Shown here: piece after piece, positions 1,851-56,214 of the stretch
Layout: each line of letters begins with the position of its first letter
Numbering within the stretch: the first letter of the stretch is position 1
NCBI GenBank assembly: GCA_051294905.1
Contig: CM119372.1
Coordinates: 28,894,001-28,958,000, forward strand
Direction: 5' to 3'
DNA from: Botryllus schlosseri
Taxonomy: Eukaryota
DNA length: 64,000 nucleotides
Program-made: the position numbers and the translations under genes
The notes under the pieces: generated by a model
What the model saw: the letters and a program-made list of their open reading frames with translations, nothing else
The model's database searches: none
What the model was told of the DNA's origin: nothing

Positions 1851-1866
1851 TCACCACAATATTTAT
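1851..1866 (+). promoter_or_regulatory. Candidate snRNA proximal sequence element (PSE) for U1 copy 2; same motif at 2844 for copy 3
   Basis: TCACCACAATATTTA starts 59 nt upstream of the U1 start in both units. Vertebrate PSEs begin TCACC at about -50 to -65. Confidence 0.55.
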
Positions 1867-1909
1867 TTTGTTGTATGAAATTGGGTGTCAATAAATTTCT
1901 GGAAAACTC

Positions 1910-15477: not shown

Positions 15478-17126
15478 GATACCTTTAATAGGACTTGTCA
15501 AAATTATTTTTGCTCGAGTGATTCAACTATCAAACTCAGATATGGTAAAAATAACCTGGAAATTGAAGAAAAATCATTTGATTGCAGTATTTCATAGGCT
15601 TAGTGCGTGCCAGGACTTTAGAAAGGGTTCAAGGAGCGATGACGTGTGATCTCTATACAAAGAGATGTATATCGAAAGTGAAATGGTACTATTTGCACGA
15701 AAATCTTTTAGCTGCAGTCGGAATATAGTGGATTTCTGAAGAAATGGCTATACCTATAGGATAGCGGGCCTATAGCCGCCGCCAAAATCATTTCAACAGA
15801 TTAGACTTCAATTTGAGCGCAGAGCGTAGTTCCAAAACACGTGAAAACGTATAGGCCTATATATATATCGACTTTTCAATTGGAGTAAAATGAAAAGGGC
15901 AAAAGAAAACAGGAAACAAAACGTGTAATAGATTGTAATGAAATTATTATAAATCCGAGACTGTTCAGCATTATTTTTTTAGGTTCAAATAATAGGCAGA
16001 GTGGAATATTGGTGGCAATGTCACGCAGAACTTTCTGTTTCATTACTCAATCATTCTATGCAGAAAAGCTCTCATCACGCTGGATTTATTTCAAAACATG
16101 AAACGAGATTTCATAGAGGAAAACAGCAATCAGCTCAACATGGCTCATCTCAGAGGAGTCCTCTCACTCCTCTGTAAAATCCAAATGCGGATCAGAATTG
16201 GTATGTACGTTACTGGTATAAACCGAGCCGGATGTTAGATTGAGAGATCGCACTTGGTGTATACTGTATACTGCATGCTTCAAGTTCATTACGTCGCTGA
16301 GCTGAACTTAGTTAGTTAGGCCCTAACTAACAAATGGCCTATACCCCTACGTTATAACGTTACCGTCGTTACCCTGCGTTAACGGCATATCGGACCTGTC
16401 CACTGTCGTACGGTACTGCAAAATTTCACAAAATATTACACGACTTTGTTAACTATTCGCTTGTCACATCATGGTTGTATTCCTTCGCTCGGCTCGCTCC
16501 CTTCCGCAGCAATCCAAGAATATTATCGAGAAATACGAAAACTCACACATTATCACAGGTCGGCTGACTCTGATCGGTTTCGGTCTGCCGCGCTTGTTTC
16601 AAACAGGGGACAATATTTTTTGTCGTTAGAGCTATTTCGAACACTATTCATCAAAAGGTGGTTAAGCCAATTTTACAAACTTTATTACTTCTGTGGGTGG
16701 ATAAATATTCTAATATGATTATTAAAATATGAATATCACACATAATGATACGCCACACATACCACGTCACTAAATTTCATGCAGTCTTCGAAATACCAGA
16801 TGTCTTTCCAGATGGCCAAATATTGGTTTTGTATTTTTTCAAAATACTTTTATAGCCATTTATTTCGCCTAGTTTTTCCATGAAATTTCAATCCCCTGCA
16901 GTAATAGCTATTTTCCTGTATAAATCAGCACACGGTATAGTCTCGTAGCAGCAACCATCGCTATAGGGCGGTAGTCAGCTATTCCGGTTCTGCGTTTCGT
17001 CTCCGCCTTTTCCCCATTTAGGGTGTAAGATTTTCTATTCGGTTTACCTGCTATTTGTGTGCGAAGATTGGACAGTTTGACTAACGAACGCATATTTTAT
17101 ACAGTATATAACCAATAACAATCATC
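15478..17126. promoter_or_regulatory. Divergent KIF4/ARPC2 intergenic region (candidate bidirectional promoter and 5' UTRs)
   Basis: Only 1.65 kb separates the two head-to-head start codons. TSSs cannot be identified from sequence. Confidence 0.5.
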
Positions 17127-33166: not shown

Positions 33167-34964
33167 CACGAGAGACTGAAGACGATCCCAATCGGCCTCA
33201 ATTTATATGTGATAGAGCCTACTGGGAGTCCAGCACTATCATGTTTTCTAATTTTTGCGAATACAGCTCGACTCAGTTTTGTATATTACGAATATCTTTT
33301 ACATTTTTAGAAGGGTCACTGAATTCAAGAAATCTAGGGGCACATAATTGCGCGAAGCTGAATCAATCTGCAGCAAAATATTCTAATTTATGATATATTT
33401 TATAAAATACGAAAATATGAGATGGGCATGGTCCCTGACTACGCCAATGAGTCGAAACTGCTGCTTTTTAAGTCATAACATCCAAAACTTCGCGGTCAAG
33501 CTGATCCAAGTCTGGGTTGACCTTGCAAGTTCACAATAAGTTATTACAGTTATTTTTTGATAATATAACTAAATTCCGAAATGACCGAGCCATTCAAAAC
33601 CTCCTCGTGGCCTAGTGTTGCCCTCGTGCCACGGTTTGGCCACCCCGGATCTACACTTTATAGCAGGGGTCTCAAACACGCGGCCACGGGCCGCATGCGA
33701 CACGCGAGACCATTTTGTGCGGCCCGCGACGGCATTTTGGATTTTGGATTTTGGACTTATTGGACGTATTACAGGAGTGGGCAAACTGCGGCCCGTGAGG
33801 ACATTTTGTGCGGCCCGCAAAGGCATCGAGAAATGTAGTAGATATTGATAAAATGCGCAGTACAAATCTACTTACTAGAACTAGAGGGAATTCGCTAAAA
33901 TTTTTCCTAAGATATTTCATCATGATATTGATTACGTATAATATTAATAATGTATATTTTGGTTTTATTGTTGGCGCATGAGCCCGGCCCATGGTCGGGA
34001 GCCACGCATTTTGAAATGTTTCGGTTGCTAAACATCCAAGGAAACCAAAACGGAAATGAATTAGTTTGGATAAAAAATGTGATTTTGGGTTAGAACTTAG
34101 AACTCCAACTTTCTGTGGTGTATCTGAACAAACCCTTTCGTGCGTGTGCTGGGTAGTGTCATCCTATGCACAGTTAGGTGCAAATTGTTCATAACTTCGG
34201 CCTCAATTAATTCATAACGAGTTGTCCAAATCAATACAAAAAGCGAAAAGTTGAAGATGAATGCTTTGCAATCAATAAAGTATCAACTGATAGGTACTTC
34301 TGTTTCGTCATCGGAGGTAACGCAATATGTATTACTTTTCATAATATGTCATTATTGTAATAAATTCGATGCTGTAATTCGAAACATCACTTGAATCCGA
34401 ACATTCTAATTTTAGACCAAATGTATCAAATTACGGGGTGCCAAATAAATCAACCGAATTAATCAAATGTTTAGGGCACCAGTAAATTATGTTGATCTCG
34501 TCCTCATAAAAGAACGTGAAGAAGGCAAGTTCAACACTGTAAGCCTTTTCCAAAAAGTTATTTAAATGTAACAGGCTGGTTATGATGATGTAAGCTTAAC
34601 CCAAAGCAGAATCAGCATATCTATGAGCCGATCGCTTCTCACATATTCAAATTTCCATCCTGTCATAAGAATCGGCACAGCCTACTTCCATCCCAAATTT
34701 TGACGACTTGATTGAAGATGGCAAGCTTGTAAAATATCATCAATGTTTCTGACCCATTTGTATTATCATCAAACCAATGTTAAAATTGTTTAATCCATAT
34801 CTATGTGTGCATGTTTACTACAATAATCAAATAAAAGTATGCGTCTTGGCTTATAATTTCGATTATACTATAATGTGGCCCGCGAATGGATTCATATGTT
34901 CAATGCGGCCCGCGAAGTAGTAAGGGAAAGCAATTTATACGCCGGCCAATCCCAGAAGGCCACG

Positions 34965-35335
34965 TCGCCTTAATTGCCACGCCTACATTGCCACATCATC
35001 CGCCCATTGCCGCACCTATGGGACACCCCTTGCCACATCATCCACCCATTGCCACATCATCTGCTACGTCATCAGCCGCGGCCATTGCCACATCATCCGC
35101 CTGTCGCCTTAATTGCCACGCCTACATTGCCACATCATCCGCCCATTGCCGCACCTATGGGACGCCCCCTGCCACATCATCCACCCATTGCCGCACCTAT
35201 AGCACACCCATTGCCACATCATCAGCCACACCCATTGCCACATCATCTGCTACGTCATCAGCCACGCCCATTGTTACATCATCCATCCATATAACGCCCA
35301 TTGCTACATCAACGCCCATTGCTACATCATCATGA
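34965..35335 (+). repeat. Subterminal tandem repeats (CCCATTGCCACATCATC-like); mirrored at ~52885-53157 and ~54488-54590
   Basis: Many degenerate ~20-nt units start ~50 bp inside each terminus. Confidence 0.9.
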
Positions 35336-38290
35336 TTATGCGTACTGAGCTGTTTTTTGACTTTTTTGCGTCAAATCTTACCTTAGCTAGAATCGACAGA
35401 TTTTCTATTATGTGTATTTAGGACTATGTATTTAAATTCCTATTCAGATTATACATAAATGCGAAAACTATGATGTCTATGCAAGGCTATATTCTCCGGA
35501 TAATATTATTAATATCAAAATTCTACACATCATCACTAATTACTTAATATAAAATCCGATTTTGAGCGCTGCGACTTGATAATATGAATCCCTACGCTTC
35601 TGATGCATGATTTTTGCGATAAGGACCCAGGTAACATTCAGAGTCTGCAACGATTGTTTGGATATACATTATAGCAATACCCCACTAAACTATAGGCGGT
35701 TATATTACTCTATTGGTCAGAGATAACTCATCCTTCCATATTTTTAAACTTGATTTTACGTATACAAGTTACGCTCTCTGCAGCCCCACATTTTACGAAT
35801 TATTTTCATTAGACGCAGGCAAGCGATTCTCCAGTTCGGAGGTACGGAAACAAATCACTCGCATGTGCGCGTTCCGAATAGTCTTGTAGAATTTTCTAAA
35901 GTCGTAACAGCTTAGTAGCATATACGCGAATCCCAAGGTGAAAATAATCGAACGAACTATAGCCGCAGGCGTGCGATTCGCAGGGCTTTATTTATACAAA
36001 CACTTTCGATGCCTGTACGCGAACCCCAGCGTTATAACGATTAGGTCTAATTAGCACGTTCTGAAGCCGTAAATTTAGTCAACATCATTGAGATGTCCAT
36101 GATTTAAATATGGTGATCGAGTGTGACAATAGCACTCGTCAAGGTTAGACAAACATAACCTTAAACTACTCTCTACTTCACAAAATATAAAGAACGAACA
36201 CCTTCGCCGCAGGTACGCGATCCCCGACGTTATAATGATAGTGCCAAATTAGCCGCATGAAAGCGAGTCTAATGAATATAACGACAGACACCAAGTTAGT
36301 TGAAAAGTAAAACTAATCGTGACCGATGCAAGACGGATTGAAACAGCGCTTTCGCTCGATTCTTGTAGTGACCACATTTCATACGGTTCAGTCCTTTTCA
36401 TGTCACTAGAATAAGGGTGAATAAACCGACAGTGAAACGCCACCGACGACTTATAACGTAATAATGTAAGCTGCGTCGGGTGCTGCTTTAATGTTAGGAG
36501 CGAATATAGTAGAAAGTCCACGTCTGGACACCTGTAAGCAGCTGCGCATACTACCGTAGTAAAACGCATAGCAGAATTCACGCAAAAGTCGATATTGCTT
36601 TGTGATGATTTTGATGTTGTTCCATACCGATTGGGAATATAGGACTCCTAATTCCTTAACTAACTACATAATCCCTAGTAACGTAGTCAGACGCATAACG
36701 GAATTTACGCAAATCGGTATTGCTCTGCGATAATTTTGACCACTATGTTTTGATAATAACTTGCTTCCGAGAAATAGATAACATTCATTATACGTTAGAT
36801 GATACTTTTCCTTTATATTCTATTATGTGTATTTAGGGCTAATGCGACATCACTATGTTGGCGACAGGCCTGATTTGAACACGCTAATTTTGCAAATTAA
36901 ACTTATCACCCACCACGAACACTCAATGAAGAGCACCCTGGAGCACCCACATAAATGCTCCACAATTTGTGACGTATAATATACTGAGCATATAATAAGC
37001 TGACAAAACTGATACTTGAGTACTCCGAAATGAACAAGTATTTTACCTTTACACGACGTTTTTGTAAAATGAATACTAATGGTACGCGAATGATCATAGA
37101 CTAAGCTTGCTTTCAGAGTTGGAAACTAAATGCATATGAAAATTTAACTATGTTTTCCCCTCACGCATCAGATGTAGGCCTACTCAAGTGTTTATGAGGC
37201 GGCGAATAGTTCGAAGGTTGTTGGTATGCAAGGACGTCACATAGAATTGTGGAGTTTTCTGTAAACTATAATCCAGTGATCTATTTTCAATCACTATACT
37301 TTTATTAATCTAAACTAAGTACTGTTAGTAGGCAAATCCTAGAAAAGTATCCTCTGATAAAAGCAGGAGTAATTCGTTATCTGTGAAATAAATAGATAGC
37401 GCGCAATATGAGCGGTGTTACGATGACTGACAAATACTTTGAATTAATGCATAGAAGTAGCGATTTCGAACTACGTAAAAAGTTAGTCGAGCTCACGCAT
37501 TTTCCATTTTCAAAAGTCGACGTTTTTTGTAAAATGAATAATAATTTTAATGAAAAATAAAAAAGAGCGAAAAATTACATTTTATCTCGGAACGCAACAA
37601 GAAAAATCGTATGAACTTGTAAACTACTTATTTATGACATAATAATAATTCTACTTGTACACTTATTCACATTTTATACCACTTTTAGTAATACTTAACG
37701 GTTTCAGTTTTAAATAAAACTCGGAATATAAAGTAATCGAAAAATTCGGTAACCAATTTCGCGTAGGCTATGCATACATATGAGGGAAGTTACATCAACG
37801 CGTGTTAACTAGTTGTATTATGTAGCTTGTAATTCATGCAAGTTTCGAAACTTCTACACCGAGTCTTTTTAAAGTAGATAGAAACGAAAAACAATTACGC
37901 CTAGGCTATGCATACAAATGAGGAAAGTTCCATCAACGCGTGTTAACTAGTTGTATCGAGTTATCGAATGAGTTTTTTCCTTACATCAAAACAACTAGAA
38001 TGTGTAACTACATTAAAAAAACGTTCCTAACCCTTAACGCACCCGCGATAAATCGTACAAGCAACAAGTTTCGAGTAATCGAAATCGCGCCCCCTGAATT
38101 CAAAGCTTATTTCGAGATCTAAGCTACTTTGAAAATGAGGATCCTAGGATTTGCTTGAGTTTCATCCAGTGGCGGCTCGTGACAATATCGGGTGGTGGGG
38201 CAAGGGCTGCAAGCGACTTTTTATCAAGATGACGTCACAATGGCGTTTTCCAACGTAAACAAGTAACTTGGTGGTACGGACTACGTACGG

Positions 38291-39857
38291 CAGGGGTTCT
38301 CAACCCGCGGCCCACGGGCCGCATGCGGCCCGCAGACGATTGTTTTGCGGCCCGCGACATCTTTCATCATAAACACAATTATTGCTGACACGGTATTGTA
38401 ACAAATTAATTTAGATACTTGGCTCTTTTATCGCACCGTCCTTGTTTCGTTTGATAATAATTTTTGAACGCAGGGGTTCTCAAACTGGGAGGCGCGCCCC
38501 TTTGGAGCGTGAAAGCATCTGAAAGGGGTGCGACGCTGCGGTCAACTGAAAAAAATTTTCGCGCTGCGCGCAATTTGTCTTCAGTTCATAGTTATTTCTC
38601 TGTGTATAGTCCGAATTCCATATTTGAGAATTCTCTCATCAACAGTCATAACCTTCCATGCCATCAAACTAGCCGTTTGTAGCATTCTGGTTGCATTTTG
38701 TTATATGACGATAAGAGAGCACGAAATTATTCTCTATAAAAAAAGGGGGTATGTCTGAAAAAGTTTGAGAACCACTGCTTTAATGTGCTCTCGTTTCTTG
38801 ATATATGCTCGACTTCAGATTGTTACTGTTTTGAATCGGTATTCTGCTGGACTCTGGTTCAAGTGAATCCCGCTACGTAGTTAGCCTGCAATTTTAAAGA
38901 ATGTGTGACTCACTGCGAACGGTTGTTGAGATTGCCGACAACGTTACAGACGCATCGTTCAAAATTACTTGGAATATCGCTAAATCCTAGAAATCTGCTA
39001 CGGAAGGTGCGATTTCAATAAGACCTTCACATACTGTGCGAATATCAGCTGTTTCCGGAACTTAGCAGCAAAGACAATATCACCAGACAAATTTCGAAGA
39101 TACAGTCGTCTGATTCAATCGTGTCCAGACGAGTTACGTCAATGTCAGTCGGTCGCATGTTCTTAAACACGTTGCCTAGTAGGTACTGCTTTAACCCAAC
39201 CTTGGACAAATCCACCGACATTGCATAACTAATTATCTGGTTGAATTTTATCGGAGTGGACATATATGCAGAGGAAATGCTGGCTGGGCAAACGTGGTGA
39301 GGGGGCCTGCGAAAAATATCAGCTTGACAAAGCTAACTCTGTAACTGTTGATGTAGGGCTCCAGGCATGGAAGGAATGGAGAATGGTTGATTGGTTTGCT
39401 CAGAAATGGTCCCGAACGCCAGACTTCCTCTCATATCACTCAGAGCTCACTCAATGTGATAATGGCCTCTGTAACGCAAAATTTACCATCATTTTATAAT
39501 TGCTCACTCAAGCATTGAAACAGAGAGTTCGGTTCTCTGGTGGAAGGGTTTTAAGTTGCATATACCGACCTGGCAATGAATGCAATGCACGCTCCATGAA
39601 GGGATTTAATTGCGCCGCTAGAAGATACATATTCTCAGAATAAGCAGCAGCTGCAAACGTATGAACGCTGTCCATTGATGCTTTATAAATTATAATGCAT
39701 AAAAATGTACTAAATGCCCGTATACGAGTGGTAAATAGGCTGCAGTAGCCTAAATTTAATTGCAGCGCACAAATACACGGTAATATTGCTATGCGGCCCG
39801 CAGCGTATTTTGCTGTTAAAATGCGGCCCGTTACACAAGAGAAGTTGAGAACCCCTG
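38291..39857. mobile_element. hAT element nested in 38167-41592
   Basis: TIR CAGGGGTTCTCAAC; perfect TSD ACGTACGG. Confidence 0.92.
38471..38777. mobile_element. 307-bp hAT MITE nested in 38291-39857 (relative at ~4160-4456)
   Basis: TIRs CAGGGGTTCTCAAACT / AGTTTGAGAACCACTG; TSD degenerate. Confidence 0.8.
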
Positions 39858-42033
39858 ACGTACGGTAACACGAACTTCCCGACAACAGTGATTTTAACGT
39901 ATGTGCCGCGAGAGGTCTGCCGGTGAGCTGTGACTTGAAGTGTGGTAACTGCGTAAACGGCGTACGGAACAAAGATTCGACACGGTTCATGTTCGCACTA
40001 TACCTGACTAATTATCTGCAGCAATGGAAATGACTATAACTCGAGAGATTGCGTAAGCCTAACTGGCTGGAGACTGTCACACGACACATACGGCTTACGG
40101 TCTATAGTGTCTATATGTCTGCTGCAAAATCGCCTTGGGAAAATATATTACCGAATAAATACGTGGATGAAAGCCGAAAACTTGGTACACTGTTACATGA
40201 AATCATCGAGAAATAGCCTCATGACCGTTTTCGGTATGGTACACTGTCAAAATTAATACGAACACACCAACACCGAATTTTGCGTAAGATTTACTGAGGA
40301 ATAGGCTAATCAAGCGATCAGCTCTTAGCCGCCATCGAAAACGAAACAGCTATCACGCTTGACAGGGGTTGTAATTGTAAGCAAATGGCCTGAAGGCCAC
40401 AATTTCACGGTGAAATTGACATTGGAGAATATAAAATAAAAGTAAATATTTGAATGCAAACCGAGGATGTTAGTAAACTGTTTCATGATATCATCATCTC
40501 ATCACCTATCTCAGTATGGAACACAGTTAGCGTTAACACAGATACACCGGCTTTTGCGTGAAATCCGCAATGCGTTAGGTGGGCTAAGTGTCAGATCAGC
40601 GCACATCTCTACCATACTCGACCTTAATAACGAAATTGCTGCCCTAATCATTGAGTGCCAACCTTGAGACTAGGCACAGCGTTCGATACTAAAATCAAGA
40701 CATACCATGCAAAAGCTCCTGACGGATCTAGGTAAGGAGCATCGTTAAAATCAATGGAGACCAATACCGGCTTTGCGTAAAATATGTTTGCGATAAATGA
40801 CGAGTCAGCTCTCACTCGACTTAGGAAACGAAATTACCACAAACACAGTACAGTGACAAACTTGAAACTTGGTACAGCGTTCGATACTAACATTAAGACT
40901 TACCGTACCAAATGTCATGACCGATCTCGGTATGGAACATCGTCAAAATCAATGGATACCAATACCGGCTCTTGAGTAAAATCTGTTTGCGATACATGAC
41001 GGTCAGCACACACTCAACTTCGGAAACGGAATTACTACCCTAAACTTTAAGTAGAAACCCTGTAACTAGGGACAGTGTTAAATACTACCATCACGACATG
41101 ACATACCAAGTTTCAAGAATTATCATGGTGTGAAACACCATCAAAATCGACCTAGACCAGCAAAGGTCGACTAAACGCATATGACGGTAACCGAGTTCAG
41201 ATATAGATACGATTGTTACATCACACCTTAAGGGCGACTAGGCTATGTTGCCCCGGTTGCTCGGTAATTTTATGAATAGGAGAGAGTAAATCACTGTTTC
41301 TTTATTGTGCGCGACTTTGAGAGAATAGACAGTGAAAGCTTGTTATGAGCGCTACCGGGGCATGCCCCGGCTAGGCATTCGCAAAGCGAAAACACGGAAG
41401 AGAATTCGATTTTCGCAGACTTCGCTATATATGGGCGGGCATTTACAAGCGAAAGGACAAGAAGAATACGATTTTCGCTGTGATTTCGGTATATATAGAT
41501 TGCTGTGCGTCTCTAAATGGTAAAGAACTGTTATTGAACAGAATTTTAGGCGGGGCAATGCCCCAGTTGCCCTATAGGACGAGCCGCCACTGGTTTCATC
41601 TATATTTTACAATGCGTTTTCGCGTTCCAGAATGACTTATGTCAATGAAAAATAGCCATTGATCATGGTTTTGTTTTTGAAAGATGTCGCGATGCCGGTG
41701 AATTTTATAGTTCTTGTAAAAAGTTGTTTGTACACAATATATGTTTAAAGTAAGTCCTACGCATTCATGATTTCGTCCGAGTTCGTATTTTAGTAATATA
41801 TACTAATTTACGATAGCGCGTTTGTAACTTGTGCAAGTACAGGAATATCATAGTTCTTGAACCGTGCTCAATGCTTAATAGAGCATTTTTGCTATTTTTC
41901 ATCGCCATAAGTCATTCTGGACCGCGTAAACGCATCGTACGATATAGATGAAAGTTATGCAAATCCTAGGATCCTCATTTTCAAAGTAGCTAAGATCTCG
42001 AAATAAGCTCTGACTTGCTATTCTCCTCAAAGC

Positions 42034-42291
42034 ATGGAATTATCAAGAGTATCACCTTCGATCACTGAAGAAACGGATGAAATTATATTCGAAGCATATT
42101 CCTTGACCAGGAATTTTATCATGTACGAACTCGACGGCTCATGCGTTAAGGTAAATACGAAAGCAGAGAGAACCTTACGTCGAGTTGGGGATGAAATATT
42201 CGAGCGACATCGAACTGTCCTAAACGCAGTCTCCAAACGTCTCCGCTATTTGCACTTTTTCACATTTTATAACACCTTAAGTAGTACTTAA
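42034..42291 (+). pseudogene. Truncated Bcl-2-family (Mcl-1-like) ORF with BH4-like and BH3 regions, left arm
   Basis: TLRRVGDEIFERHRTVLNAVSKRL resembles the Mcl-1 BH3 region TLRRVGDGVQRNHETAFQGMLRKL. It is preceded by a BH4-like helix EAYSLTRNFIMYEL. No BH1, BH2 or TM. Confidence 0.7.
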
Positions 42292-42882
42292 CAGTTTTAG
42301 TTTTAAATAAAATACGGAATATAAACTAATCGAAAAATTCGGTTTTTGCGTGCATCTGTTTTGCGGGAGCGTATAGCACGTACCTATACATAGTCAACTT
42401 TAATAACTGAATTACCATGCTTAACATTGAATCCCAACTCTAAACTTGATACGTAGATGTAGGACATTATGGCAATGCACCATGCTAAATTTCATCACAC
42501 ATCTAATGATGGAACACCTTTAAAACTAACGCAGTCGAATACCGACTTTTACGCGTATATCTGTTTTGCGTGAACTTAGCATATACCTATACATAGTCAA
42601 TTTTAATAGCAGAATTACCGTGTTAAACATTGAATTCCCACCTTGAAAGTTGGTACGCGGTTATAGGACATTATAAAAATGCACCATACCAAATCCCATC
42701 AGACATTTCATGATGGAACAACTTTAAAACTAACGCGGCTCTACATCAACTTTTTGCGTACATCTGTTTTGCGGGAGCGTATAGCACGTACCCATACATA
42801 GCCAACTTTAATAACGGAATTACCATGCATTGAATCCCAACTCTAAACTTGATACGTAGTTGTAGGGCATTATGGCTATGCA

Positions 42883-45194: not shown

Positions 45195-45234
45195 GCTATG
45201 CACCATGCTAAATTTCATCACACATCTAATGATG

Positions 45235-45526
45235 GAAATTGCTTACTAAGAGAAGTATATTGTTGTATACACAATAGTGGAGAGAATATTTAAAATGTAG
45301 TAAGCAGGCCGATGGGTATTCGTTTAGTTGTATAGGCATAAAAAACATTCCCGCGCGCTCTTAAACAAAACACTTCCTAACCCTACCACCTAATACTAAG
45401 ACGCGCGCGGGAATGTTTTTTATACCTATACAACTAAACGAATACCCATCGGCCTGCTTACTACATTTTAAATATTCTCTCCACTATTGTGTATACAACA
45501 ATATACTTCTCTTAGTAAGCAATTTC
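45235..45526. repeat. Central hairpin: ~128-bp near-perfect inverted repeat with a ~33-nt loop
   Basis: gaaattgcttactaagag...cattcccgcgcgctctta pairs with taagacgcgcgcgggaatg...ctcttagtaagcaatttc. Confidence 0.95.
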
Positions 45527-46789
45527 TCGTGAATTCCGAAACACATTGACGCGTGTTAACTTCTATATTCGGTGATAGTATCATTTTCATGTCTGATAAT
45601 GTTACTTGTCAAGGTGATACAAACGTAAGCTCAAACTACTTTAAAATTTAAAGTCTTAGCAAATTTTATCTAACACTGAAACTGTCGAGTACCGATAAAG
45701 TACTCTAAAACCTAGTCACTTTTTACGTGGAAGGAGAACATAGCGAAGTACTTGTACATTTGCAGTACTTAAGTATAGGTTTGGCCTGCTTGCGCTATAC
45801 TTAATGAAGTGATTACCTATTTACACTGCATCTACTTCTATTTCAGAGTTTTTCGCTTTTTCGACCAAACTATACCTCAATACTTACTTTTTAACTAACT
45901 GGCAAATCATTACTTCTTGTACTTTAGTGGGACTTTACTGCTACAATTTACTTTTTTCAGTGGATCACTGGTCTTGGTGAGTGTTGTCAGTTTCATCCAT
46001 ATCCTACGAAAAGCAACTTGAGTACTTCACGGGTTCGTATCATCGCAAATAATATATTCTAAACATGTTTAGATAGCGAGGAGTTGTAATTATAGGTGAA
46101 AGGGACAAATTTTATCTAAAACTGTAACTGTAAAGTACCGATAAAGTAGTCTAGAGTATTTTTTATGTTTATTCAGCTCAACGAATATCTTCATTTGGCC
46201 TGCTTACTACATTTTAAAGATTTTCTACGCTAGAAAAATCGCTGTAACATGATAAGTATATTATAATTAATCTTATCAGCGCGGCATAGTACATTCGAGT
46301 AAATTCATTAAATTAGCTTATGTTTATGAAATTATTTGGTTTCCGAATTCTATCTAAAACTGAAACCGACGAGTATCGGTAAAAGCAGTCTTAAACCGTA
46401 GACACTTATTACGTGGAGGGAGGCGATAGCGAAGTACTCGTGCATTTTGTACTACTCAAGTATAGGTTTTATCTGCTTGCACTAAACTTAATCAAGTGAT
46501 TAACTATTTACACTGCATCTACTTCTATTTCAGAGTATTCGGTTTTCAGGTAAACTATACCTGCAATACTTACTTTTTAACTCACTCGGAAATCATCACG
46601 TCTTGTACTTTACTAGAAATTTACTGCTACTAAATGTTGAAATGTACTGTTTTCAGCGGTCTTGATGAGTTGTGCTAGTTTCATCTATATCCTACGACGC
46701 ATTTTCTCGAGTGGGATGTTATAGGAAGCAAGACGAATCATTGTAAAAGTGTTGAAACTTAATTACATATGTAATTCCATCACTAAAGT

Positions 46790-49310
46790 TGATCACGCAT
46801 AGGTACGTGCTACACTCCTGCAAACAGATTCACGCGAAGTTGGTATAGAACTGCGTTAGTTTTAAAGGTGTTACATCATGAAATGTCTGACGAAATTTGG
46901 TATGGTGCATTGTTATTATGTCCTACAACCGCGTATCAACGTTCAAGGTGAGAATTTAATGTTTAGCATGCTAATTCTGTTATTAAAATTGACTATGTAT
47001 GGGTATATGCTATGTTCACGAAAAACAGATATGCATAAAAGTTGGTATTCGACCGCGATAGTTTCAAAGGTGTTCCATCATTAGATGTGTGATGAAATTT
47101 AGCATGGTGAATTGCCATAATGTCCTATAACTACGTATCAAGTTTCGAGTTGGGATTCAATGTTAAGCATGGTAATTCCGTTATTAAAGTTGGCTATGTA
47201 TGGGTAGGCTACGTGCTATACGCTCCCACAAAACAGATGTACGCAAAAAGTCGATGTAGAGCCGCGTTAGTTTTAAAGTTGTTCCATCATGAAATGTGTG
47301 ATGGGATTTGGTATGGTGCATTGTTATAATCTCCTATAACCGCGTACCAACTTTCAAGGTGGGAATTCAATGTTTAACACGGTAATTCTGCTATTAAAAT
47401 TGACTATGTATAGGTATATGCTATGTTCACGCAAAACAGATATGCGTAAAAGTCGGTATTCGACTGCGTTAGTTTTAAAGGTGTTCCATCATTAGATGTG
47501 TGATGAAATTTAGCATGGTGCATTGCCATAATGTTCTACAACTACGTATCAAGTTTCGAGTTGGGATTCAATGTTAAGCATGGTAATTCCGTTGTTAAAG
47601 TTAACTATGTATAGGTACGTGCTATACGCCCCCACGCAAAACAGATGTACGCAAAAAGTCGATGTAGAACCGCGTTAGTTTTAAAGTTGTTCCATCATGA
47701 AATGCGTGAGGAAATTTGGTATGCTGCATAATCACAATGTCCTATACCTACGTACCAAGTTTCAAGGTGAGGAGTCACATATTAGCATGATAATTCTGTT
47801 ATTAAATCTGACTATGTATATGTACACGCTACCGAAAACAGATTTAGGCAAAAGTTGCTATAGAACTGCGTTAGTTTTAAAGTTGTTCCATCATGAAATG
47901 TGTGATGAAATTTGGTATGCAGCATAATCACAATGCCCTGGAGCTCATTTAGATACGTTTTTTAATTTAGTTATACATTCTAGTTGTTTTGATGTAAGGA
48001 GAAAATCATTCGATAACTCGATACAGCTACTTTAACACGCGTTGATGTAACTTTCCTCATTTGTATGCATGCATAGCCTACGCGAAATTGGTTACCGAAT
48101 TTTTCGATTAGTTTATATTCCGTCTTTTATTTAAAACTGAAACTGTTAAGTATTACTTAAAGTGTTATAAAATGTGACAAAGTGTACAAGTAGAATTATT
48201 ATTATGTCATGAACAAGTAGTTTACAAATTCATACGATTTTTCTTGTTGCGTTCCGGGATATAATGTAATTTTTCGCTCTTTTTTATTTTTTATTTTTTC
48301 AATAAAATTAGTATTCATTTTACAAAAAACGTCGTGTAAAGATAAAGTACTTGCAAAATTTGACATGGTGCATTGTCATAATGTCTTACAACTGCGTACC
48401 GAGTTTCAAGGTAGGGAGTCGAATATTAACATGGTAATTCCGTTAATAAAATTGACTATGTTTAGGTACGTGCTACGCTACGGAAAAACAGATTTAGCCA
48501 AAAGTCTGTATAGAACTGCGTTGGTTTTGAAGGTGTTACATCATGAAATGTCTGACGAAATTTGGTATGGTGCATTGTTATTATGTCCTACAACTGCGTA
48601 CCAACGTTCAAGGTGAGAATTTAATGTTTAGCATGCTAATTCTGTTATTAAAATTGACTATGTATGGGTATATGCTATGTTCACGAAAAACAGATATGCG
48701 TAAAAGTCGGTATTCGACTGCGATAGTTTCAAAGGTGTTCCATCATTAGATGTGTGATGAAATTTAGCATGGTGCATAGCCATAATGCCCTACAACTACG
48801 TATCAAGTTTAGAGTTGGGATTCAATGCATGGTAATTCCGTTATTAAAGTTGGCTATGTATGGGTACGTGCTATACGCTCCCGCAAAACAGATGTACGCA
48901 AAAAGTTGATGTAGAGCCGCGTTAGTTTTAAAGTTGTTCCATCATGAAATGTCTGATGGGATTTGGTATGGTGCATTTTTATAATGTCCTATAACCGCGT
49001 ACCAACTTTCAAGGTGGGAATTCAATGTTTAACACGGTAATTCTGCTATTAAAATTGACTATGTATAGGTATATGCTAAGTTCACGCAAAACAGATATAC
49101 GCGTAAAAGTCGGTATTCGACTGCGTTAGTTTTAAAGGTGTTCCATCATTAGATGTGTGATGAAATTTAGCATGGTGCATTGCCATAATGTCCTACATCT
49201 ACGTATCAAGTTTAGAGTTGGGATTCAATGTTAAGCATGGTAATTCCGTTGTTAAAGTTGACTATGTATAGGTACGTGCTATACGCTCCCGCAAAACAGA
49301 TGCACGCAAA
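46790..49310. repeat. ~205-bp degenerate tandem array with alternating variants, interrupted at ~47940-48350; mirrored at ~42350-42882
   Basis: aaaacagat recurs at ~47022, 47230, 47433, 47638 and 47836, and continues from ~48365. Confidence 0.9.
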
Positions 49311-49363
49311 AACCGAATTTTTCGATTAGTTTATATTCCGTATTTTATTTAAAACTAAAACTG

Positions 49364-49621
49364 TTAAGTACTACTTAAGGTGTTATAAAATGTGAAAAAG
49401 TGCAAATAGCGGAGACGTTTGGAGACTGCGTTTAGGACAGTTCGATGTCGCTCGAATATTTCATCCCCAACTCGACGTAAGGTTCTCTCTGCTTTCGTAT
49501 TTACCTTAACGCATGAGCCGTCGAGTTCGTACATGATAAAATTCCTGGTCAAGGAATATGCTTCGAATATAATTTCATCCGTTTCTTCAGTGATCGAAGG
49601 TGATACTCTTGATAATCCCAT
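49364..49621 (-). pseudogene. Mirror copy of the truncated Bcl-2-family ORF, right arm
   Basis: Identical to 42034-42291 except E2G. Confidence 0.7.
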
Positions 49622-52600
49622 GCTTTGAGGAGAATAGCAAGTCAGAGCTTATTTCGAGATCTTAGCTACTTTGAAAATGAGGATCCTAGGATTTGCATAA
49701 CTTTCATCTATATCGTACGATGCGTTTACGCGGTCCGGAATGACTTATGGCGATGAAAAATAGCAAAAATGCTCTATTAAGCATTGAGCACGGTTCAAGA
49801 ACTATGATATTCCTGTACTTGCACAAGTTACAAACGCGCTATCGTAAATTAGTATATATTACTAAAATACGAACTCGGACGAAATCATGAATGCGTAGGA
49901 CTTACTTTAAACATATATTGTGTACAAACAACTTTTTACAAGAACTATAAAATTCACCGGCATCGCGACATCTTTCAAAAACAAAACCATGATCAATGGC
50001 TATTTTTCATTGACATAAGTCATTCTGGAACGCGAAAACGCATTGTAAAATATAGATGAAACTCAAGCAAATCCTAGGATCCTCATTTTCAAAGTAGCTT
50101 AGATCTCGAAATAAGCTTTGAATTCAGGGGGCGCGATTTCGATTACTCGAAACTTGTTGCTTGTACGATTTATCGCGGGTGCGTTAAGGGTTAGGAACGT
50201 TTTTTTAATGTAGTTACACATTCTAGTTGTTTTGATGTAAGGAAAAAACTCATTCGATAACTCGATACAACTAGTTAACACGCGTTGATGGAACTTTCCT
50301 CATTTGTATGCATAGCCTAGGCGTAATTGTTTTTCGTTTCTATCTACTTTAAAAAGACTCGGTGTAGAAGTTTCGAAACTTGCATGAATTACAAGCTACA
50401 TAATACAACTAGTTAACACGCGTTGATGTAACTTCCCTCATATGTATGCATAGCCTACGCGAAATTGGTTACCGAATTTTTCGATTACTTTATATTCCGA
50501 GTTTTATTTAAAACTGAAACCGTTAAGTATTACTAAAAGTGGTATAAAATGTGAATAAGTGTACAAGTAGAATTATTATTATGTCATAAATAAGTAGTTT
50601 ACAAGTTCATACGATTTTTCTTGTTGCGTTCCGAGATAAAATGTAATTTTTCGCTCTTTTTTATTTTTTATTAAAATTATTATTCATTTTACAAAAACGT
50701 CGACTTTTGAAAATGGAAAATGCGTGAGCTCGACTAACTTTTTACGTAGTTCGAAATCGCTACTTCTATGCATTAATTCAAAGTATTTGTCAGTCATCGT
50801 AACACCGCTCATATTGCGCGCTATCTATTTATTTCACAGATAACGAATTACTCCTGCTTTTATCAGAGGATACTTTTCTAGGATTTGCCTACTAACAGTA
50901 CTTAGTTTAGATTAATAAAAGTATAGTGATTGAAAATAGATCACTGGATTATAGTTTACAGAAAACTCCACAATTCTATGTGACGTCCTTGCATACCAAC
51001 AACCTTCGAACTATTCGCCGCCTCATAAACACTTGAGTAGGCCTACATCTGATGCGTGAGGGGAAAACATAGTTAAATTTTCATATGCATTTAGTTTCCA
51101 ACTCTGAAAGCAAGCTTAGTCTATGATCATTCGCGTACCATTAGTATTCATTTTACAAAAACGTCGTGTAAAGGTAAAATACTTGTTCATTTCGGAGTAC
51201 TCAAGTATCAGTTTTGTCAGCTTATTATATGCTCAGTATATTATACGTCACAAATTGTGGAGCATTTATGTGGGTGCTCCAGGGTGCTCTTCATTGAGTG
51301 TTCGTGGTGGGTGATAAGTTTAATTTGCAAAATTAGCGTGTTCAAATCAGGCCTGTCGCCAACATAGTGATGTCGCATTAGCCCTAAATACACATAATAG
51401 AATATAAAGGAAAAGTATCATCTAACGTATAATGAATGTTATCTATTTCTCGGAAGCAAGTTATTATCAAAACATAGTGGTCAAAATTATCGCAGAGCAA
51501 TACCGATTTGCGTAAATTCCGTTATGCGTCTGACTACGTTACTAGGGATTATGTAGTTAGTTAAGGAATTAGGAGTCCTATATTCCCAATCGGTATGGAA
51601 CAACATCAAAATCATCACAAAGCAATATCGACTTTTGCGTGAATTCTGCTATGCGTTTTACTACGGTAGTATGCGCAGCTGCTTACAGGTGTCCAGACGT
51701 GGACTTTCTACTATATTCGCTCCTAACATTAAAGCAGCACCCGACGCAGCTTACATTATTACGTTATAAGTCGTCGGTGGCGTTTCACTGTCGGTTTATT
51801 CACCCTTATTCTAGTGACATGAAAAGGACTGAACCGTATGAAATGTGGTCACTACAAGAATCGAGCGAAAGCGCTGTTTCAATCCGTCTTGCATCGGTCA
51901 CGATTAGTTTTACTTTTCAACTAACTTGGTGTCTGTCGTTATATTCATTAGACTCGCTTTCATGCGGCTAATTTGGCACTATCATTATAACGTCGGGGAT
52001 CGCGTACCTGCGGCGAAGGTGTTCGTTCTTTATATTTTGTGAAGTAGAGAGTAGTTTAAGGTTATGTTTGTCTAACCTTGACGAGTGCTATTGTCACACT
52101 CGATCACCATATTTAAATCATGGACATCTCAATGATGTTGACTAAATTTACGGCTTCAGAACGTGCTAATTAGACCTAATCGTTATAACGCTGGGGTTCG
52201 CGTACAGGCATCGAAAGTGTTTGTATAAATAAAGCCCTGCGAATCGCACGCCTGCGGCTATAGTTCGTTCGATTATTTTCACCTTGGGATTCGCGTATAT
52301 GCTACTAAGCTGTTACGACTTTAGAAAATTCTACAAGACTATTCGGAACGCGCACATGCGAGTGATTTGTTTCCGTACCTCCGAACTGGAGAATCGCTTG
52401 CCTGCGTCTAATGAAAATAATTCGTAAAATGTGGGGCTGCAGAGAGCGTAACTTGTATACGTAAAATCAAGTTTAAAAATATGGAAGGATGAGTTATCTC
52501 TGACCAATAGAGTAATATAACCGCCTATAGTTTAGTGGGGTATTGCTATAATGTATATCCAAACAATCGTTGCAGACTCTGAATGTTACCTGGGTCCTTA

Positions 52601-53157
52601 TCGCAAAAAATCATGCATCAGAAGCGTAGGGATTCATATTATCAAGTCGCAGCGCTCAAAATCGGATTTTATATTAAGTAATTAGTGATGATATGTAGAA
52701 TTTTGATATTAATAATATTATCCGGAGAATATAGCCTTGCATAGACATCATAGTTTTCGCATTTATGTATAATCTGAATAGGAATTTAAATACATAGTCC
52801 TAAATACACATAATAGAAAATCTGTCGATTCTAGCTAAGGTAAGATTTGACGCAAAAAAGTCAAAAAACAGCTCAGTACGCATAATCATGATGATGTAGC
52901 AATGGGCGTTGATGTAGCAATGGGCGTTATATGGATGGATGATGTAACAATGGGCGTGGCTGATGACGTAGCAGATGATGTGGCAATGGGTGTGGCTGAT
53001 GATGTGGCAATGGGTGTGCTATAGGTGCGGCAATGGGTGGATGATGTGGCAGGGGGCGTCCCATAGGTGCGGCAATGGGCGGATGATGTGGCAATGTAGG
53101 CGTGGCAATTAAGGCGACAGGCGGATGATGTGGCAATGGCCGCGGCTGATGACGTAG

Positions 53158-54487
53158 TGTAACGGGGCGCCATCTATGGCTAGTGATGACGTCATGCATA
53201 TTGACGAAGCGTGTTGTTATTGATGCGTTCACTCTCTTGGATGTACGCCGTGCGAGGTGCACGTGCTGTATTTACTGGTCCTGTTTCCATGCGCCTGTGC
53301 TGCGATCTGATAGCTTGAAGAATAAAGAACTTACAACAACACTGTTACAAATGGCGAGCACTCCAGTCTTCAAGCCTTTCAAGAGTCAGTGAGCACCTGA
53401 GCGGTAACAAAGTGTCATGGATTTGTTGCGTAAGGATCATGAATATATTCGTACAGAGATCAAGCGGGCTCATCGCCGGATTGACGACATGGTTGAGGCC
53501 CAGAAGAGTATTCTCGATCAAGTATTGAGTATTGTGCAAAGTTTTGGAGCCACGCCTGCGCATCCATTGCGGGTTGTTAAACCCTATAATGAGGTTGAAT
53601 CGTCGCGAATTGTTCCGAGAAAGCATGAAAATGTTGGTGCACTTGTTTTGCCTGGTCTGGCTGATCCTGTTTTGTCCGAGGTGTCTGCTAAGTTGGATGG
53701 TTCCTTAGCACATCTTGAAGATTGTGGATCTGTGATGGTGTCTGCTAAGTTGGATGATTCCTTAGCGCATCATGATGACTGTAGGCATGTGATGGAGCCT
53801 GATGTGTCAGCTAAGAGGGATGATTCCTTAGCGCAACTTGAGAATTGCGGGTCTGTTGTGACATGTCATAACATTGAAGTTGACCCGAGCTTGGACTTGA
53901 AAGAGTTGACCGTTTTCGAGAAAATCTGGAATAAGTATAATGCTCCGTATGTTCTGTTGCCGACGGAAGACAAAACGTACTGCGTCCGTACTGATGTCAG
54001 CAAGTTGAATTCCATTACTGTACAAGACGTTATCAAATGGTGCGGTGAAGAAATTGAGGACCTTGCTTCGCATAACTGGGTGGATGGATCGACAGACCTG
54101 ATGATGATCGACAAGATTGTTTGGAATTTCATGTTTTTATATATTGTTTTGTCTCGATATCAGCTATTTGTTTGGCCTAGTCTTCACGATGTTGTATGTG
54201 TCTTTTTGCCTTTGATTCGGTTTACCATTTGATGTGTTATTGGTTTAGAGATAAATGTTCCTCATGTTACCTCTAAAAAATTGGAGGGGGGTATATGTAA
54301 CGGGGCGCCATCTATGGCTAGTGATGACGTCATGCATATTGACGAAGCGTGTTGTTATTGATGCGCTCACTCTCTTGGATGTACGCCGTGCGAGGTGCAC
54401 GTGCTGTATTTACTGGTCCTGTTTCCATGCGCCTGTGCTGCGATCTGATAGCTTGAAGAATAAAGAACTTACAACAACACTGTTACA
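53158..54487 (+). mobile_element. Small non-autonomous LTR retroelement (TRIM-like, 1330 bp), right arm only
   Basis: 192-bp LTRs TGTAAC...GTTACA (53158-53349, 54296-54487) with one visible mismatch; 4-bp TSD GTAG. PBS-like TGGCGAGC follows the 5' LTR and PPT GGAGGGGGG precedes the 3' LTR. Empty site in the left arm at ~35064. Confidence 0.93.
53417..54232 (+). CDS. 271-aa orphan ORF filling the LTR element interior
   Basis: Uninterrupted ORF spanning most of the interior. N-terminal coiled-coil-like segment, three VSAK(L/R)D(G/D)SLA repeats and a hydrophobic C-terminus. No RT, IN or zinc-knuckle motifs. Confidence 0.55.
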   Translation: MDLLRKDHEYIRTEIKRAHRRIDDMVEAQKSILDQVLSIVQSFGATPAHPLRVVKPYNEVESSRIVPRKHENVGALVLPGLADPVLSEVSAKLDGSLAHLEDCGSVMVSAKLDDSLAHHDDCRHVMEPDVSAKRDDSLAQLENCGSVVTCHNIEVDPSLDLKELTVFEKIWNKYNAPYVLLPTEDKTYCVRTDVSKLNSITVQDVIKWCGEEIEDLASHNWVDGSTDLMMIDKIVWNFMFLYIVLSRYQLFVWPSLHDVVCVFLPLIRFTI

Positions 54488-56214
54488 GTAGCAGATGATG
54501 TGGCAATGGGTGGATGATGTGGCAAGGGGTGTCCCATAGGTGCGGCAATGGGCGGATGATGTGGCAATGTAGGCGTGGCAATTAAGGCGACGTGGCCTTC
54601 TGGGATTGGCCGGCGTATAAATTGCTTTCCCTTACTACTCCGCGAGCTCAAAAGTTTGCCCAGCCCTGACTTATTGTGACTCCGAACGCCGTGACTTGAT
54701 ACAACAACGGGCGAAACAAACCATGAAACTGTTATGGGGAATAGTAATATATCAAAAGGTCGTAACTTCCGTTGTGTATTTAGATATATAAGCAGGTCGG
54801 TATGGCAACCATTGGAATTATGTTGCCCTCTTGATGTATAGTTAGTTACATCATCTGTCATCTTGGGTCTCTTTATCCATGATATTATCGCCAATTGAAG
54901 TCGCCGAGTAAACTAGTGGTACGCCCCACAGCTATAACACCAACGGATTATTCGGTGATGGACATTTCTATTGCTATGGCACATTGAACATTATATTCAA
55001 GTTGTTATTGATCTGTTTCAATATATTCGAAGGTAAATCTAACGCTGATTTAATTTGACTTTGGTAATTACATGATAAATAGCCTAATTATCAGGGGTAT
55101 ATGGCTGAAACCCAGATTAGGCTGCTCTGATATCAGATCAATCTCGGTAAATTCTAAAATATTCCACCTATAATTGTGGCACGTCAAATGTCCGATAGCT
55201 GCAAAATTATAACGCGACAGCTTTCACGATGTCATAATGCATTTGTACTATCGCATGCTGATTATAACTAATTATTTTGACCAACTATGCCAAGTACAAC
55301 AACTATTTTATTCAAATATTTAAAAATATGATTTATTTCGTGCCAGGCGTGAATTCACAATAGTAGCCTAAATCACATTTTCACGATGTGTGAGGAATAT
55401 CAGTCTGCAAGGTCCCGTCAAATAAGGCCTACTTGGAAATACATTGAATACCCATATTGTTGGTGGTGCGGCCCGCGGCGCCATCAAAAAGTAAGGAAGT
55501 GTCCTGCGAGCACATTTGAGTTTGAGACCCTGCTCTGCAGCAATGAATCTAACTTCATGCCCAATTGCAGAAGATTGGTATAGCCTACTCCTCGTATCAT
55601 TTAACGCTGCCTGAGACAGTTGGGATGCGGTGTGCAGCGGGCGGTTGTGCTACGTACTAATCGACGCAGCTATTTCGGAGCCAACCCTCTCCTCGCCGGG
55701 ACACATGACGCTGGGGTGGCGAAAATGTTACTGGGCAAAGTGCGCTGATACAAAGACCGGCGGCAATAAAATCTAAGCACAAAATGACCGTCATGGATTG
55801 GACAGAACCTTCTATATCAGTGCTTCCCAACCGGTGGGTCGGGAAGCTATATTTCAGACGGGTCGCGAATAAATTCTAAATGCTACAGTTTTCTATAAAA
55901 TTTGCCAAAAATGGCAAACACCTTCTTTTCTCACGATTAGACGGGCAAATATCCCATCTCCTCTAAATTAAATTGTTTTTCTCCGTGCCGTAAGTCACGT
56001 TATCGCGCTCACAATCAAACAGATGACAAAGATTTTCGTGAGAGTCATATTCATTGGAGTGTAATTGAAATTGGATAGTGTATTTTATGTATGCCTTAAA
56101 ATTGGAAACCAATCATTCTTTCCTCCATGAACTTTGCGAAATTTGATTGGAAAATACAATCCAGCCCGATAAGAATCAGCTAACCATTGCCTCGACGCAA
56201 GCTATACGCGGGGC

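What the first reader, a model, noticed from the sequence alone, without database searches (positions are those of the whole stretch)
34916..54639. Gene-less, giant-palindrome Polinton/Maverick derivative, possibly an integrated snap-back (defective-interfering-like) genome
Seen: AGTAGT...ACTACT termini, a perfect 6-bp TSD CCGCGA, and insertion into a hAT MITE whose end is restored when the element is removed. After subtracting nested insertions both inverted arms are ~4.57 kb, with only a handful of differences by eye. No ORF resembling pPolB, integrase, ATPase, protease or capsid is visible. Established: Polintons have AG..CT termini (often short AGT-type repeats), 6-bp TSDs, lengths of ~15-20 kb, and TIRs usually under ~1 kb. 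Inference: this is one end of a Polinton copied onto itself, keeping both termini so a helper element could replicate and integrate it in trans.
Basis: partly seen in the sequence, partly recalled or inferred. Interest (0 to 1): 0.92.

Follow-up and report, generated by a model that had tools for sequence, protein, structure and literature searches.

The report
Giant palindromic Maverick satellite, damaged copy
This is a real, young insertion of a very abundant mirror-image mobile element with the end signature of virus-like Maverick/Polinton transposons but none of their recognisable genes; it likely depends on a helper Maverick, likely began as a roughly 16-kb near-perfect hairpin that later lost 3.2 kb of one arm, and carries half of a cell-death (Bcl-2-type) gene in each arm.

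Summary
Confirmed: AGTAGT/ACTACT ends, 6-bp target duplication, two 4,568-bp arms differing at 8 positions, three nested insertions each in one arm only. Ends and duplication match Mavericks (PMC8097293); no core Maverick gene was found. Two corrections. It is not gene-less: each arm has an 85-codon frame matching the front half (helix 1, BH3) of ascidian Bcl-2-like proteins, without BH1/BH2. And the 3.5-kb asymmetric centre is probably secondary: a 124-bp stem with a 44-nt loop sits at its left edge, joined to the left arm by a 3-bp microhomology, which implies a 15.85-kb whole-length palindrome that lost 3.2 kb. Public runs show the arm at very high depth in two samples, and both arms share bases that are rare in the family, so symmetry is renewed. 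The helper was not seen: no genome is held. The scan found this family before on other DNA of the same genome (unchecked notes: hundreds of copies, helper Mavericks, Bcl-2 carriers). Not found in print in my searches. New variant of a known kind.

The parts
34910..34915 (+). Left copy of the 6-bp target-site duplication CCGCGA
34916..35335 (+). Left terminus: (AGT)2 end motif and GC-rich (54%) block with a degenerate minisatellite (35045-35283); likely the origin-bearing end
   Evidence: origin role inferred from PMC8097293
34916..38166 (+). Left long arm, first segment (AT-rich beyond 35335, no family hit in its frames)
38167..41592 (.). Nested non-autonomous hAT-type element in the left arm only (perfect 14-bp ends, 8-bp TSD; contains further MITEs and a 198-bp tandem repeat)
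41601..42882 (+). Left long arm, second segment: older internal inverted repeat (41891-42016 against 38097-38166 and 41601-41656, about 89%), Bcl-2-like frame, start of the 202-bp repeat array
42034..42291 (+). 85-codon frame; codons 1-72 match helix 1 and BH3 of Bcl-2-family proteins; truncated, no BH1, BH2 or membrane anchor
42883..45194 (-). Nested hAT-type transposon in the left arm only, 8-bp TSD, transposase remains in three frames (43096-45062)
45203..45237 (+). Last 35 bp of the left long arm; its final 3 bases (GAA) are also the first 3 of the central stem (microhomology at the inferred deletion joint)
45235..45526 (.). Central hairpin: 124-bp stem (45235-45358 with 45403-45526, 1 mismatch), 44-nt loop (45359-45402), no flanking duplication at its ends; inferred true centre of symmetry
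45527..48737 (-). 3,211 bp with no mirror partner: internally duplicated AT-rich block, 202-bp repeat array (46771-47939), diverged copy (88-94%) of arm modules (47949-48353), start of the second array; all arm-like modules lie in the right arm's orientation
48738..53157 (-). Right long arm, inner segment, including the 202-bp array to 49312
49364..49621 (-). Mirror copy of the truncated Bcl-2-like frame (one amino-acid difference from the left copy)
53158..54487 (+). Nested 1,330-bp LTR element in the right arm only (192-bp LTRs, 1 difference, 4-bp TSD, one 274-codon frame without a Pfam hit)
54492..54639 (-). Right terminus, identical over 148 bp to the left one, ending in (ACT)2
54640..54645 (+). 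Right copy of the target-site duplication, followed by the end of the interrupted hAT-type MITE (to 54668)

Best explanation
This is one young, chromosomally integrated copy of a very abundant palindromic element with Maverick/Polinton ends and no recognisable core gene, which likely relies on a helper Maverick and likely descends from a 15.85-kb whole-length hairpin that lost 3.2 kb of its left arm. Inferred working: the helper's protein-primed polymerase starts at either (AGT)2 end and displaces one strand; because that strand is self-complementary around the 44-nt loop it folds back, so one arm is copied from (or corrected against) the other and both arms leave each round identical; the helper's retrovirus-like integrase inserts the product with a 6-bp duplication. 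After that the two arms drift apart like LTRs: 8 differences, three arm-specific insertions. The 3,214-bp loss next to the central hairpin (3-bp microhomology) happened either during such replication or after insertion. The Bcl-2-like frame is cargo, here a truncated and probably non-functional remnant. Shown: anatomy, end motif, TSD, arm identity, high abundance, shared rare bases, Bcl-2 homology. Inferred: helper, replication route, parent length, order of events.
For: End motif and TSD equal the commonest type among vertebrate Mavericks (PMC8097293 section 7; passage on 6-bp TSDs). No core gene at the sensitivity used: 0 of 54 frames of 35 codons or more from the right arm and centre reach a Pfam cut-off, 1 weak PHROG hit of unknown function among 58. 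Right-arm depth 31,902-145,311 in run X1 and 15,836-87,155 in run X7 over all 19 arm bins, against 204-270 and 672-787 in the 4 bins wholly inside the nested LTR element. Of the 31 arm sites listed, the window base is the minority in X1 at 29; both arms carry it at 28 of these 29, including bases held by 0.5-2% of the depth; the one exception is private to the right arm at depth 10.5, close to the 10.7-21.6 of 7 of the 8 long X1 pieces listed. Central stem has 1 mismatch in 124 bp (0.2 expected at the arms' divergence, P of at least one 0.19), no flanking duplication at its ends, and every arm-like module in the unpaired stretch lies in the right arm's orientation. Implied parent 15,850 bp lies inside the 12.7-24.6 kb (mean 16.9) of intact vertebrate Mavericks. 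Adintoviruses carry Bcl2 and IAP homologues (PMC8502044 passage); polB-less polintons with cargo seem to stay mobile (10.1101/2025.02.07.637071 section 13).
Against: No helper was seen: no genome is held, and scans of viral, metagenome and genome contigs found nothing relevant. No second insertion with its own TSD was read here. The centre was not covered by the one read-laying run, so the parent structure rests on this copy's anatomy and on unchecked notes. The 40 variant rows shown are the best supported of 479, chosen for strong other-letter support, so they give no unbiased fraction. Summed contig depth is not a copy number. Part of the small stem has an 80% look-alike at 46159-46232, as a MITE family could. 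No Polinton-specific protein profiles were available, and frames under 35 codons, the terminal block and most of the repeat arrays were not scanned.
Confidence: 0.66

Rival explanations
1. Copy-back (panhandle) element with unusually long terminal repeats: the 4.57-kb arms plus a 3.5-kb unique centre are the replicating form, and the 292-bp hairpin is an unrelated MITE or an old fold-back scar.
For: The arms as they stand cover only 72% of the core; about 2-kb gene-bearing TIRs are reported in butterfly polintons; outer-arm bins are about twice as deep as inner-arm bins in both DNA runs, a weak hint of shorter repeats in many copies.
Against: The hairpin is as young as the long arms (1 mismatch in 124 bp), has no duplication at its ends, begins exactly where the left arm stops and overlaps it by 3 bases; site depths vary twentyfold, so the twofold step is within noise.
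Confidence: 0.14
2. Same element, but the symmetry is kept by arm-to-arm gene conversion in the chromosome, as in Y-chromosome palindromes (recalled), not by the replication route; the insertion may then be older than 0.18% arm divergence suggests.
For: Three large nested insertions and a large deletion in a copy whose arms differ at only 8 positions is a lot for a very young insertion.
Against: Perfect TSD and identical termini; nested elements are themselves young (LTRs 1 difference in 192, perfect 14-bp hAT ends and intact TSDs); differences are spread along the arm with no fall towards the centre.
Confidence: 0.11
3. A foldback-type cut-and-paste transposon moved by an unrelated transposase, with Maverick-like ends by convergence.
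For: Long, internally repetitive inverted arms without a transposase; no helper shown.
Against: Both the (AGT)2//(ACT)2 motif and the 6-bp TSD match Mavericks; foldback families I recall make 7-9-bp duplications (recalled, not checked; one search found no paper).
Confidence: 0.06
4. Assembly fold-back artefact.
For: No single read or contig spanning the element was seen (no listed piece spans the stretch).
Against: Arm-specific insertions with their own TSDs, 8 arm differences, a TSD at the outer ends, and a right-arm-only base present in run X1 at about single-copy depth.
Confidence: 0.01

Closest known systems
Maverick/Polinton elements of vertebrates (Barreat and Katzourakis 2021, PMC8097293; section 7 and passages read)
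   Same: (AGT)2//(ACT)2 end motif, 6-bp TSD, overall size class
   Different: No pPolB, integrase, ATPase, protease or capsid frame found; inverted arms 4,568 bp (implied 7,903) against 46-1,447 bp; copy number far above the median of 8 reported there
Butterfly polintons with about 2-kb gene-bearing TIRs and polB-less, cargo-carrying polintons (Pannagram preprint, 10.1101/2025.02.07.637071; sections 12 and 13 read)
   Same: Long TIRs that duplicate genes; derivatives that lack a core gene yet seem mobile; other transposons as cargo
   Different: Those keep most core genes and a large unique middle; this one keeps none that I could recognise and is inferred to be palindromic to a 44-nt loop
Snap-back defective genomes of adeno-associated virus (PMC8235507; passages read)
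   Same: Self-complementary genome made of one end copied onto itself, symmetric and asymmetric forms, helper-dependent
   Different: Transient virion DNA of a parvovirus, not a germline-integrated high-copy family; packaging and interference are untested here
Adintovirus accessory Bcl2/IAP genes (Starrett et al. 2021, PMC8502044; passage read, supplement not seen)
   Same: Anti-apoptotic gene family carried on a Polinton-type element
   Different: Here only the helix 1-BH3 half remains, in two mirror copies, on an element without viral genes; nearest named relative is a Styela clava cellular protein (53% over 59 query residues)

Membership tests
Maverick/Polinton (autonomous) | Conserved 6-bp end motif, e.g. 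(AGT)2//(ACT)2 | tested here: met
   definition
Maverick/Polinton (autonomous) | 6-bp target-site duplication | tested here: met
   CCGCGA on both sides
Maverick/Polinton (autonomous) | Terminal inverted repeats of about 50-1,500 bp | tested here: not met
   arms are 4,568 bp; published ranges
Maverick/Polinton (autonomous) | Protein-primed polymerase B and retrovirus-like integrase | tested here: not met
   longest ATG frame between 45238 and 53157 is 106 codons; no Pfam hit at cut-off in 54 frames
Maverick/Polinton (autonomous) | Packaging ATPase, protease, major and minor capsid genes | tested here: not met
   no Polinton-specific profiles were available, so short decayed remnants could be missed
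Non-autonomous Maverick derivative | Shares termini with an autonomous Maverick of the same genome | not testable with these tools
   no genome held; reported only in unchecked earlier notes
Non-autonomous Maverick derivative | Many dispersed copies | tested here: met
   arm depth 20 to over 100 times that of the nested LTR element's interior in two samples; dispersal and other TSDs not read here
Snap-back defective genome | One end copied onto itself, self-complementary up to a small loop | tested here: inconclusive
   72% paired in the long arms as it stands; complete symmetry only for the inferred parent
Snap-back defective genome | Replicated and packaged by the helper; interferes with it | not testable with these tools
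   no data on extrachromosomal forms or particles
Foldback-type cut-and-paste transposons | 7-9-bp target duplication and transposase-specific ends (recalled) | tested here: not met
   TSD is 6 bp and ends match Mavericks
Multi-motif Bcl-2 family (Pfam PF00452) | Helix 1 and BH3 region | tested here: met
   profile of 84 Bcl-2 relatives, not including this frame, matches at E 1.2e-9 among 2,869 window pieces, profile positions 16-77 of 194; phmmer E 1.8e-8 to XP_039252627
Multi-motif Bcl-2 family (Pfam PF00452) | BH1, BH2 and C-terminal membrane anchor | tested here: not met
   no PF00452 hit; no further piece anywhere in the window

The most novel reading that the evidence does not exclude
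An animal genome holds a heritable population of snap-back defective genomes of its own Maverick virus: whole-length hairpins sized like the helper so that they are packaged, far outnumbering it, resymmetrised at each round, and acting as vehicles for apoptosis-control genes; in this subfamily the BH3-retaining half gene, or hairpin RNA read across its two mirror copies, would act against full-length Bcl-2 relatives of host or helper.
Probability: 0.22. Interest if true: 0.88.

Novelty: new variant of a known kind. Interest (0 to 1): 0.7.

Why it matters
How Mavericks copy and insert their DNA has never been shown directly in animals; the model of a folded-back single strand copied by a protein-primed polymerase is a proposal (described in 10.64898/2026.07.28.741278 passage; original paper not held). 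A high-copy family of palindromes whose two arms share rare bases is a natural record of that step, and arm divergence dates each insertion as LTRs do. This copy adds how such palindromes decay: loss of part of one arm beside the central hairpin, which leaves a spacer, plus arm-specific insertions. It also shows these elements multiplying a truncated Bcl-2-family gene to high copy number. Such gene-poor 12-16-kb palindromes would be missed by Maverick surveys that start from integrase and polymerase hits.

Tried and rejected
Whole genome: not held, so no census of copies or helper search. Exact terminal pattern in viral contigs and metagenome contigs: 0 matches. Bcl-2-like frame against metagenome contigs: 1 locus, which reads as an ATP-synthase operon and was rejected as chance (scan stopped at 36 of 64 parts); genome contigs and viral contigs: none. 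Word-index search for a longer parent protein: none of 35 candidates, weak evidence because the same search also missed the Styela relative. PDB sequence search gave only weak MCL-1 matches on BH3 (E 0.36-1.2); the protein atlas gave PAS-domain clusters for the 74-residue piece, rejected against the alignment evidence. P0123 (bacterial repeat protein) is a chance hit. Rfam: 0 matches. No RNA holder was listed with certainty. The one raw RNA run laid (about 6 in 100 of it) gave 264 reads, depth 0-7 on both strands, 96% running on into unlike sequence: no defined transcript can be claimed or excluded. All 5 listed variants in the Bcl-2-like frame fall at second codon positions or change the residue (compared with P0121); too few and too selected to measure selection, but no sign of constraint. 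First reading of the 292-bp hairpin as an old 90%-identical MITE was dropped once the loop was excluded. My first counts of 9-10 arm differences came from mis-set insertion boundaries and were corrected to 8. Look-ups of earlier findings by sequence and by nearness gave nothing. No fold or complex prediction was run.
Full report
1. Observation. The element runs from 34916 to 54639 (19,724 bp), begins AGTAGT, ends ACTACT and is flanked by CCGCGA on both sides. Compared segment by segment, each long arm is 4,568 bp and the two differ at 6 substitutions and 2 single-base indels in 4,569 columns (99.82%; earlier counts of 9-10 came from mis-set insertion boundaries). Three insertions interrupt one arm each: a hAT-type element 38167-41592 (8-bp TSD, perfect 14-bp ends), a hAT-type transposon 42883-45194 (8-bp TSD; its longest frame scores 0.93 by features to clusters with the hAT dimerisation domain, a lead rather than an alignment) and an LTR element 53158-54487 (LTRs differ at 1 of 192, 4-bp TSD). 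Without them the element is 12,636 bp. The flanks read on as a GGCCCG...CCCTG MITE end like 8 others in the window; the MITE's other end was not found. Arm-specific insertions with their own TSDs, and a right-arm-only base present in run X1 at depth 10.5, make an assembly fold-back very unlikely, although no spanning read was seen.

2. Host. Probably an ascidian: the nearest named relative of the cargo frame is a Styela clava protein and a neighbouring kinesin is 44-47% identical to tunicate KIF4 proteins, only slightly above birds. The species was not determined. No genome is held.

3. Genes. No frame in arms or centre resembles a Maverick core gene: 0 of 54 stop-to-stop frames of 35 codons or more (right arm 49313-52900, centre outside the repeat arrays) reach a Pfam cut-off, and PHROGs gave 1 weak hit of unknown function among 58; the longest ATG frame between 45238 and 53157 is 106 codons. 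The terminal block, most array frames and pieces under 35 codons were not scanned, and no Polinton-specific profiles were at hand. But the element is not gene-less. An 85-codon frame at 42034-42291 (mirror 49364-49621) matches XP_039252627 (bcl-2-like protein 2, Styela clava) at E 1.8e-8, 53% over query residues 12-70; that protein and P0124 carry PF00452. A profile from 84 Bcl-2 relatives that excludes this frame finds the two mirror frames at E 1.2e-9 and 1.6e-9 among 2,869 window pieces, profile positions 16-77 of 194, next best E 0.39. Homology ends at codon 72, where a duplicated arm module and a 202-bp repeat array begin; BH1, BH2 and the anchor are absent from the window. P0121, 82 aa and 94% identical, from an unnamed assembly, continues differently at that point. 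The five variant sites listed in this frame all change a residue or fall at a second codon position: few and selected, but no sign of constraint. I read it as a cargo remnant.

4. The centre. Between the long arms lie 3,500 bp. At their left edge is a hairpin: stem 45235-45358 with 45403-45526, 124 bp, 1 mismatch, loop 44 nt. It has no duplication at its ends, its divergence fits that of the long arms (0.2 mismatches expected, P of at least one 0.19), and its first three bases are the last three of the left arm. The remaining 3,211 bp (45527-48737) hold an internally duplicated block, two 202-bp arrays and an 88-94% copy of arm modules, all in the right arm's orientation. The simplest reading: the right half is complete (7,903 bp from loop to end), the left half lost 3,214 bp at a 3-bp microhomology, and the parent was a 15,850-bp palindrome with a 44-nt loop (arithmetic only). 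I looked for this after earlier notes described siblings that are about 93% palindromic; a later note reports a family built around the same kind of small central hairpin with about 41 unpaired bases (e1-7804811), which I could not check.

5. Family. Laid on 49330-54900, two DNA runs of different samples and studies give summed depths of 31,902-145,311 (X1) and 15,836-87,155 (X7) in all 19 arm bins, against 204-270 and 672-787 in the 4 bins wholly inside the LTR element. The tool warns that this is no copy number; taking the private base (10.5) as one copy gives about 2,800 at that site as an upper bound, so hundreds to a few thousand arms is the fair range. A third run, of another organism label, has depth 15-60 over the arm (X6), unexplained: a relative or carry-over. 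Of 31 arm sites listed (from the 40 best-supported of 479 rows), the window base is the minority in X1 at 29, under 10% at 14; both arms share it at 28 of the 29, down to 0.5% of depth. A rare base present in both arms must have been copied from one arm to the other, so symmetry is renewed within the family's history. RNA: 264 reads from about 6 in 100 of one run, depth 0-7, both strands, 96% running on into unlike sequence; no defined transcript.

6. Mechanism. Shown: ends, TSD, arms, abundance, shared rare bases, cargo homology, hairpin and joint. Inferred: a helper Maverick's protein-primed polymerase starts at the repeated end motif (the role proposed in PMC8097293, passage), displaces a strand that folds about the central loop, and one arm templates or corrects the other; the helper's integrase makes the 6-bp duplication. 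The implied parent length lies within the 12.7-24.6 kb of intact vertebrate Mavericks, as expected if packaging sets the size, which is untested. Rivals: a long-TIR copy-back form with an unrelated hairpin (0.14), chromosomal arm-to-arm conversion (0.11), an unrelated foldback transposon (0.06), artefact (0.01). The helper was not seen here; scans of viral, metagenome and genome contigs found nothing relevant. Unchecked notes of this scan report several hundred such palindromes, about 60 gene-carrying Mavericks, and subfamilies with Bcl-2, IAP or other cargo in the same genome.

7. Comparison with what is known. It has the end motif and TSD of Mavericks but fails the gene and TIR-length tests for an autonomous member: TIRs 46-1,447 bp in vertebrates (PMC8097293, section 7 and passages), 100-1,500 bp in general (PMC10748475, passages). 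Closest reported forms: butterfly polintons with about 2-kb gene-bearing TIRs, and polB-less cargo carriers that seem mobile (10.1101/2025.02.07.637071, sections 12-13). It is built like the snap-back genomes of adeno-associated virus (PMC8235507, passages). Bcl2 and IAP homologues are known in adintoviruses (PMC8502044, passage; its supplementary maps were not seen and may bear on the cargo's origin). The anole survey notes an apparent absence of non-autonomous Polintons there (PMC3014272, passage). Terminal 52-nt palindromes in Halocafeteria virophages are a different thing, as are the gene-scale palindromes in a Botryllus assembly paper (PMC12448946, passages). Passages of PMC6431247, PMC11414722, PMC11296320 and PMC10680173 held nothing on whole-element palindromes. 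Kapitonov and Jurka 2006 is not held; that non-autonomous Polintons exist in Repbase is recalled, not checked.

8. Novelty and verdict. Searches (listings, plus the passages named above) showed no description of high-copy, whole-length palindromic Maverick satellites; the library lacks most subscription papers and Repbase. New variant of a known kind: a non-autonomous Maverick derivative with a snap-back build. This copy is a damaged member with a truncated cargo gene, useful for how such palindromes decay. Interest 0.70; the bolder reading (packaged, heritable defective genomes that carry apoptosis regulators) has probability about 0.22 and would merit 0.88.

Noticed in passing
window 12412-15522 (-): Uninterrupted 1,036-codon frame of a KIF4-type kinesin with no intron; best unnamed relatives 68% and 55%, named tunicate proteins 44-47%. 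Intronless gene or retrocopy.
   Followed up: partly
window 54609 (run X23): Seven RNA reads leave the window's sequence 30 bases inside the right terminus and run on with other letters that end in the same terminal hexamer: a second end type in the family, possibly another subfamily or the helper.
   Followed up: no
window 49406 (runs X7 and X6; protein P0121): Diverged contigs part from the window at the point where the Bcl-2 homology stops, and P0121 (82 aa, 94% identical) continues differently there: other copies carry a different, perhaps longer, version of the gene.
   Followed up: partly
window 50639-52991: Many joints that skip or repeat 60-1,500 bp of the arm in other copies: the family is structurally heterogeneous.
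   Followed up: no
window 50657 (run X23): Fourteen RNA reads with a T-rich loose end beside an A-rich stretch: polyadenylation of an inward transcript or internal priming.
   Followed up: no
window 38097-38166 with 41601-42016: Older internal inverted repeat (126 bp, about 89%) inside each arm, directly before the Bcl-2-like start codon; MITE or scar of an earlier fold-back centre.
   Followed up: no
window 53408-54232 (+): 274-codon frame in the 1.3-kb LTR element, no Pfam or PHROG hit; a small non-autonomous LTR element with a gag-like position.
   Followed up: partly
window 40654-41148: 198-bp tandem repeat inside the first hAT insertion, weakly similar (76% over 59 bp) to the arm at 51590-51648.
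   Followed up: no
window 20094-20790: A 697-bp palindromic element, 84% between halves.
   Followed up: no
window 1-3479: Near-identical tandem segments of about 1 kb (93-98%).
   Followed up: no
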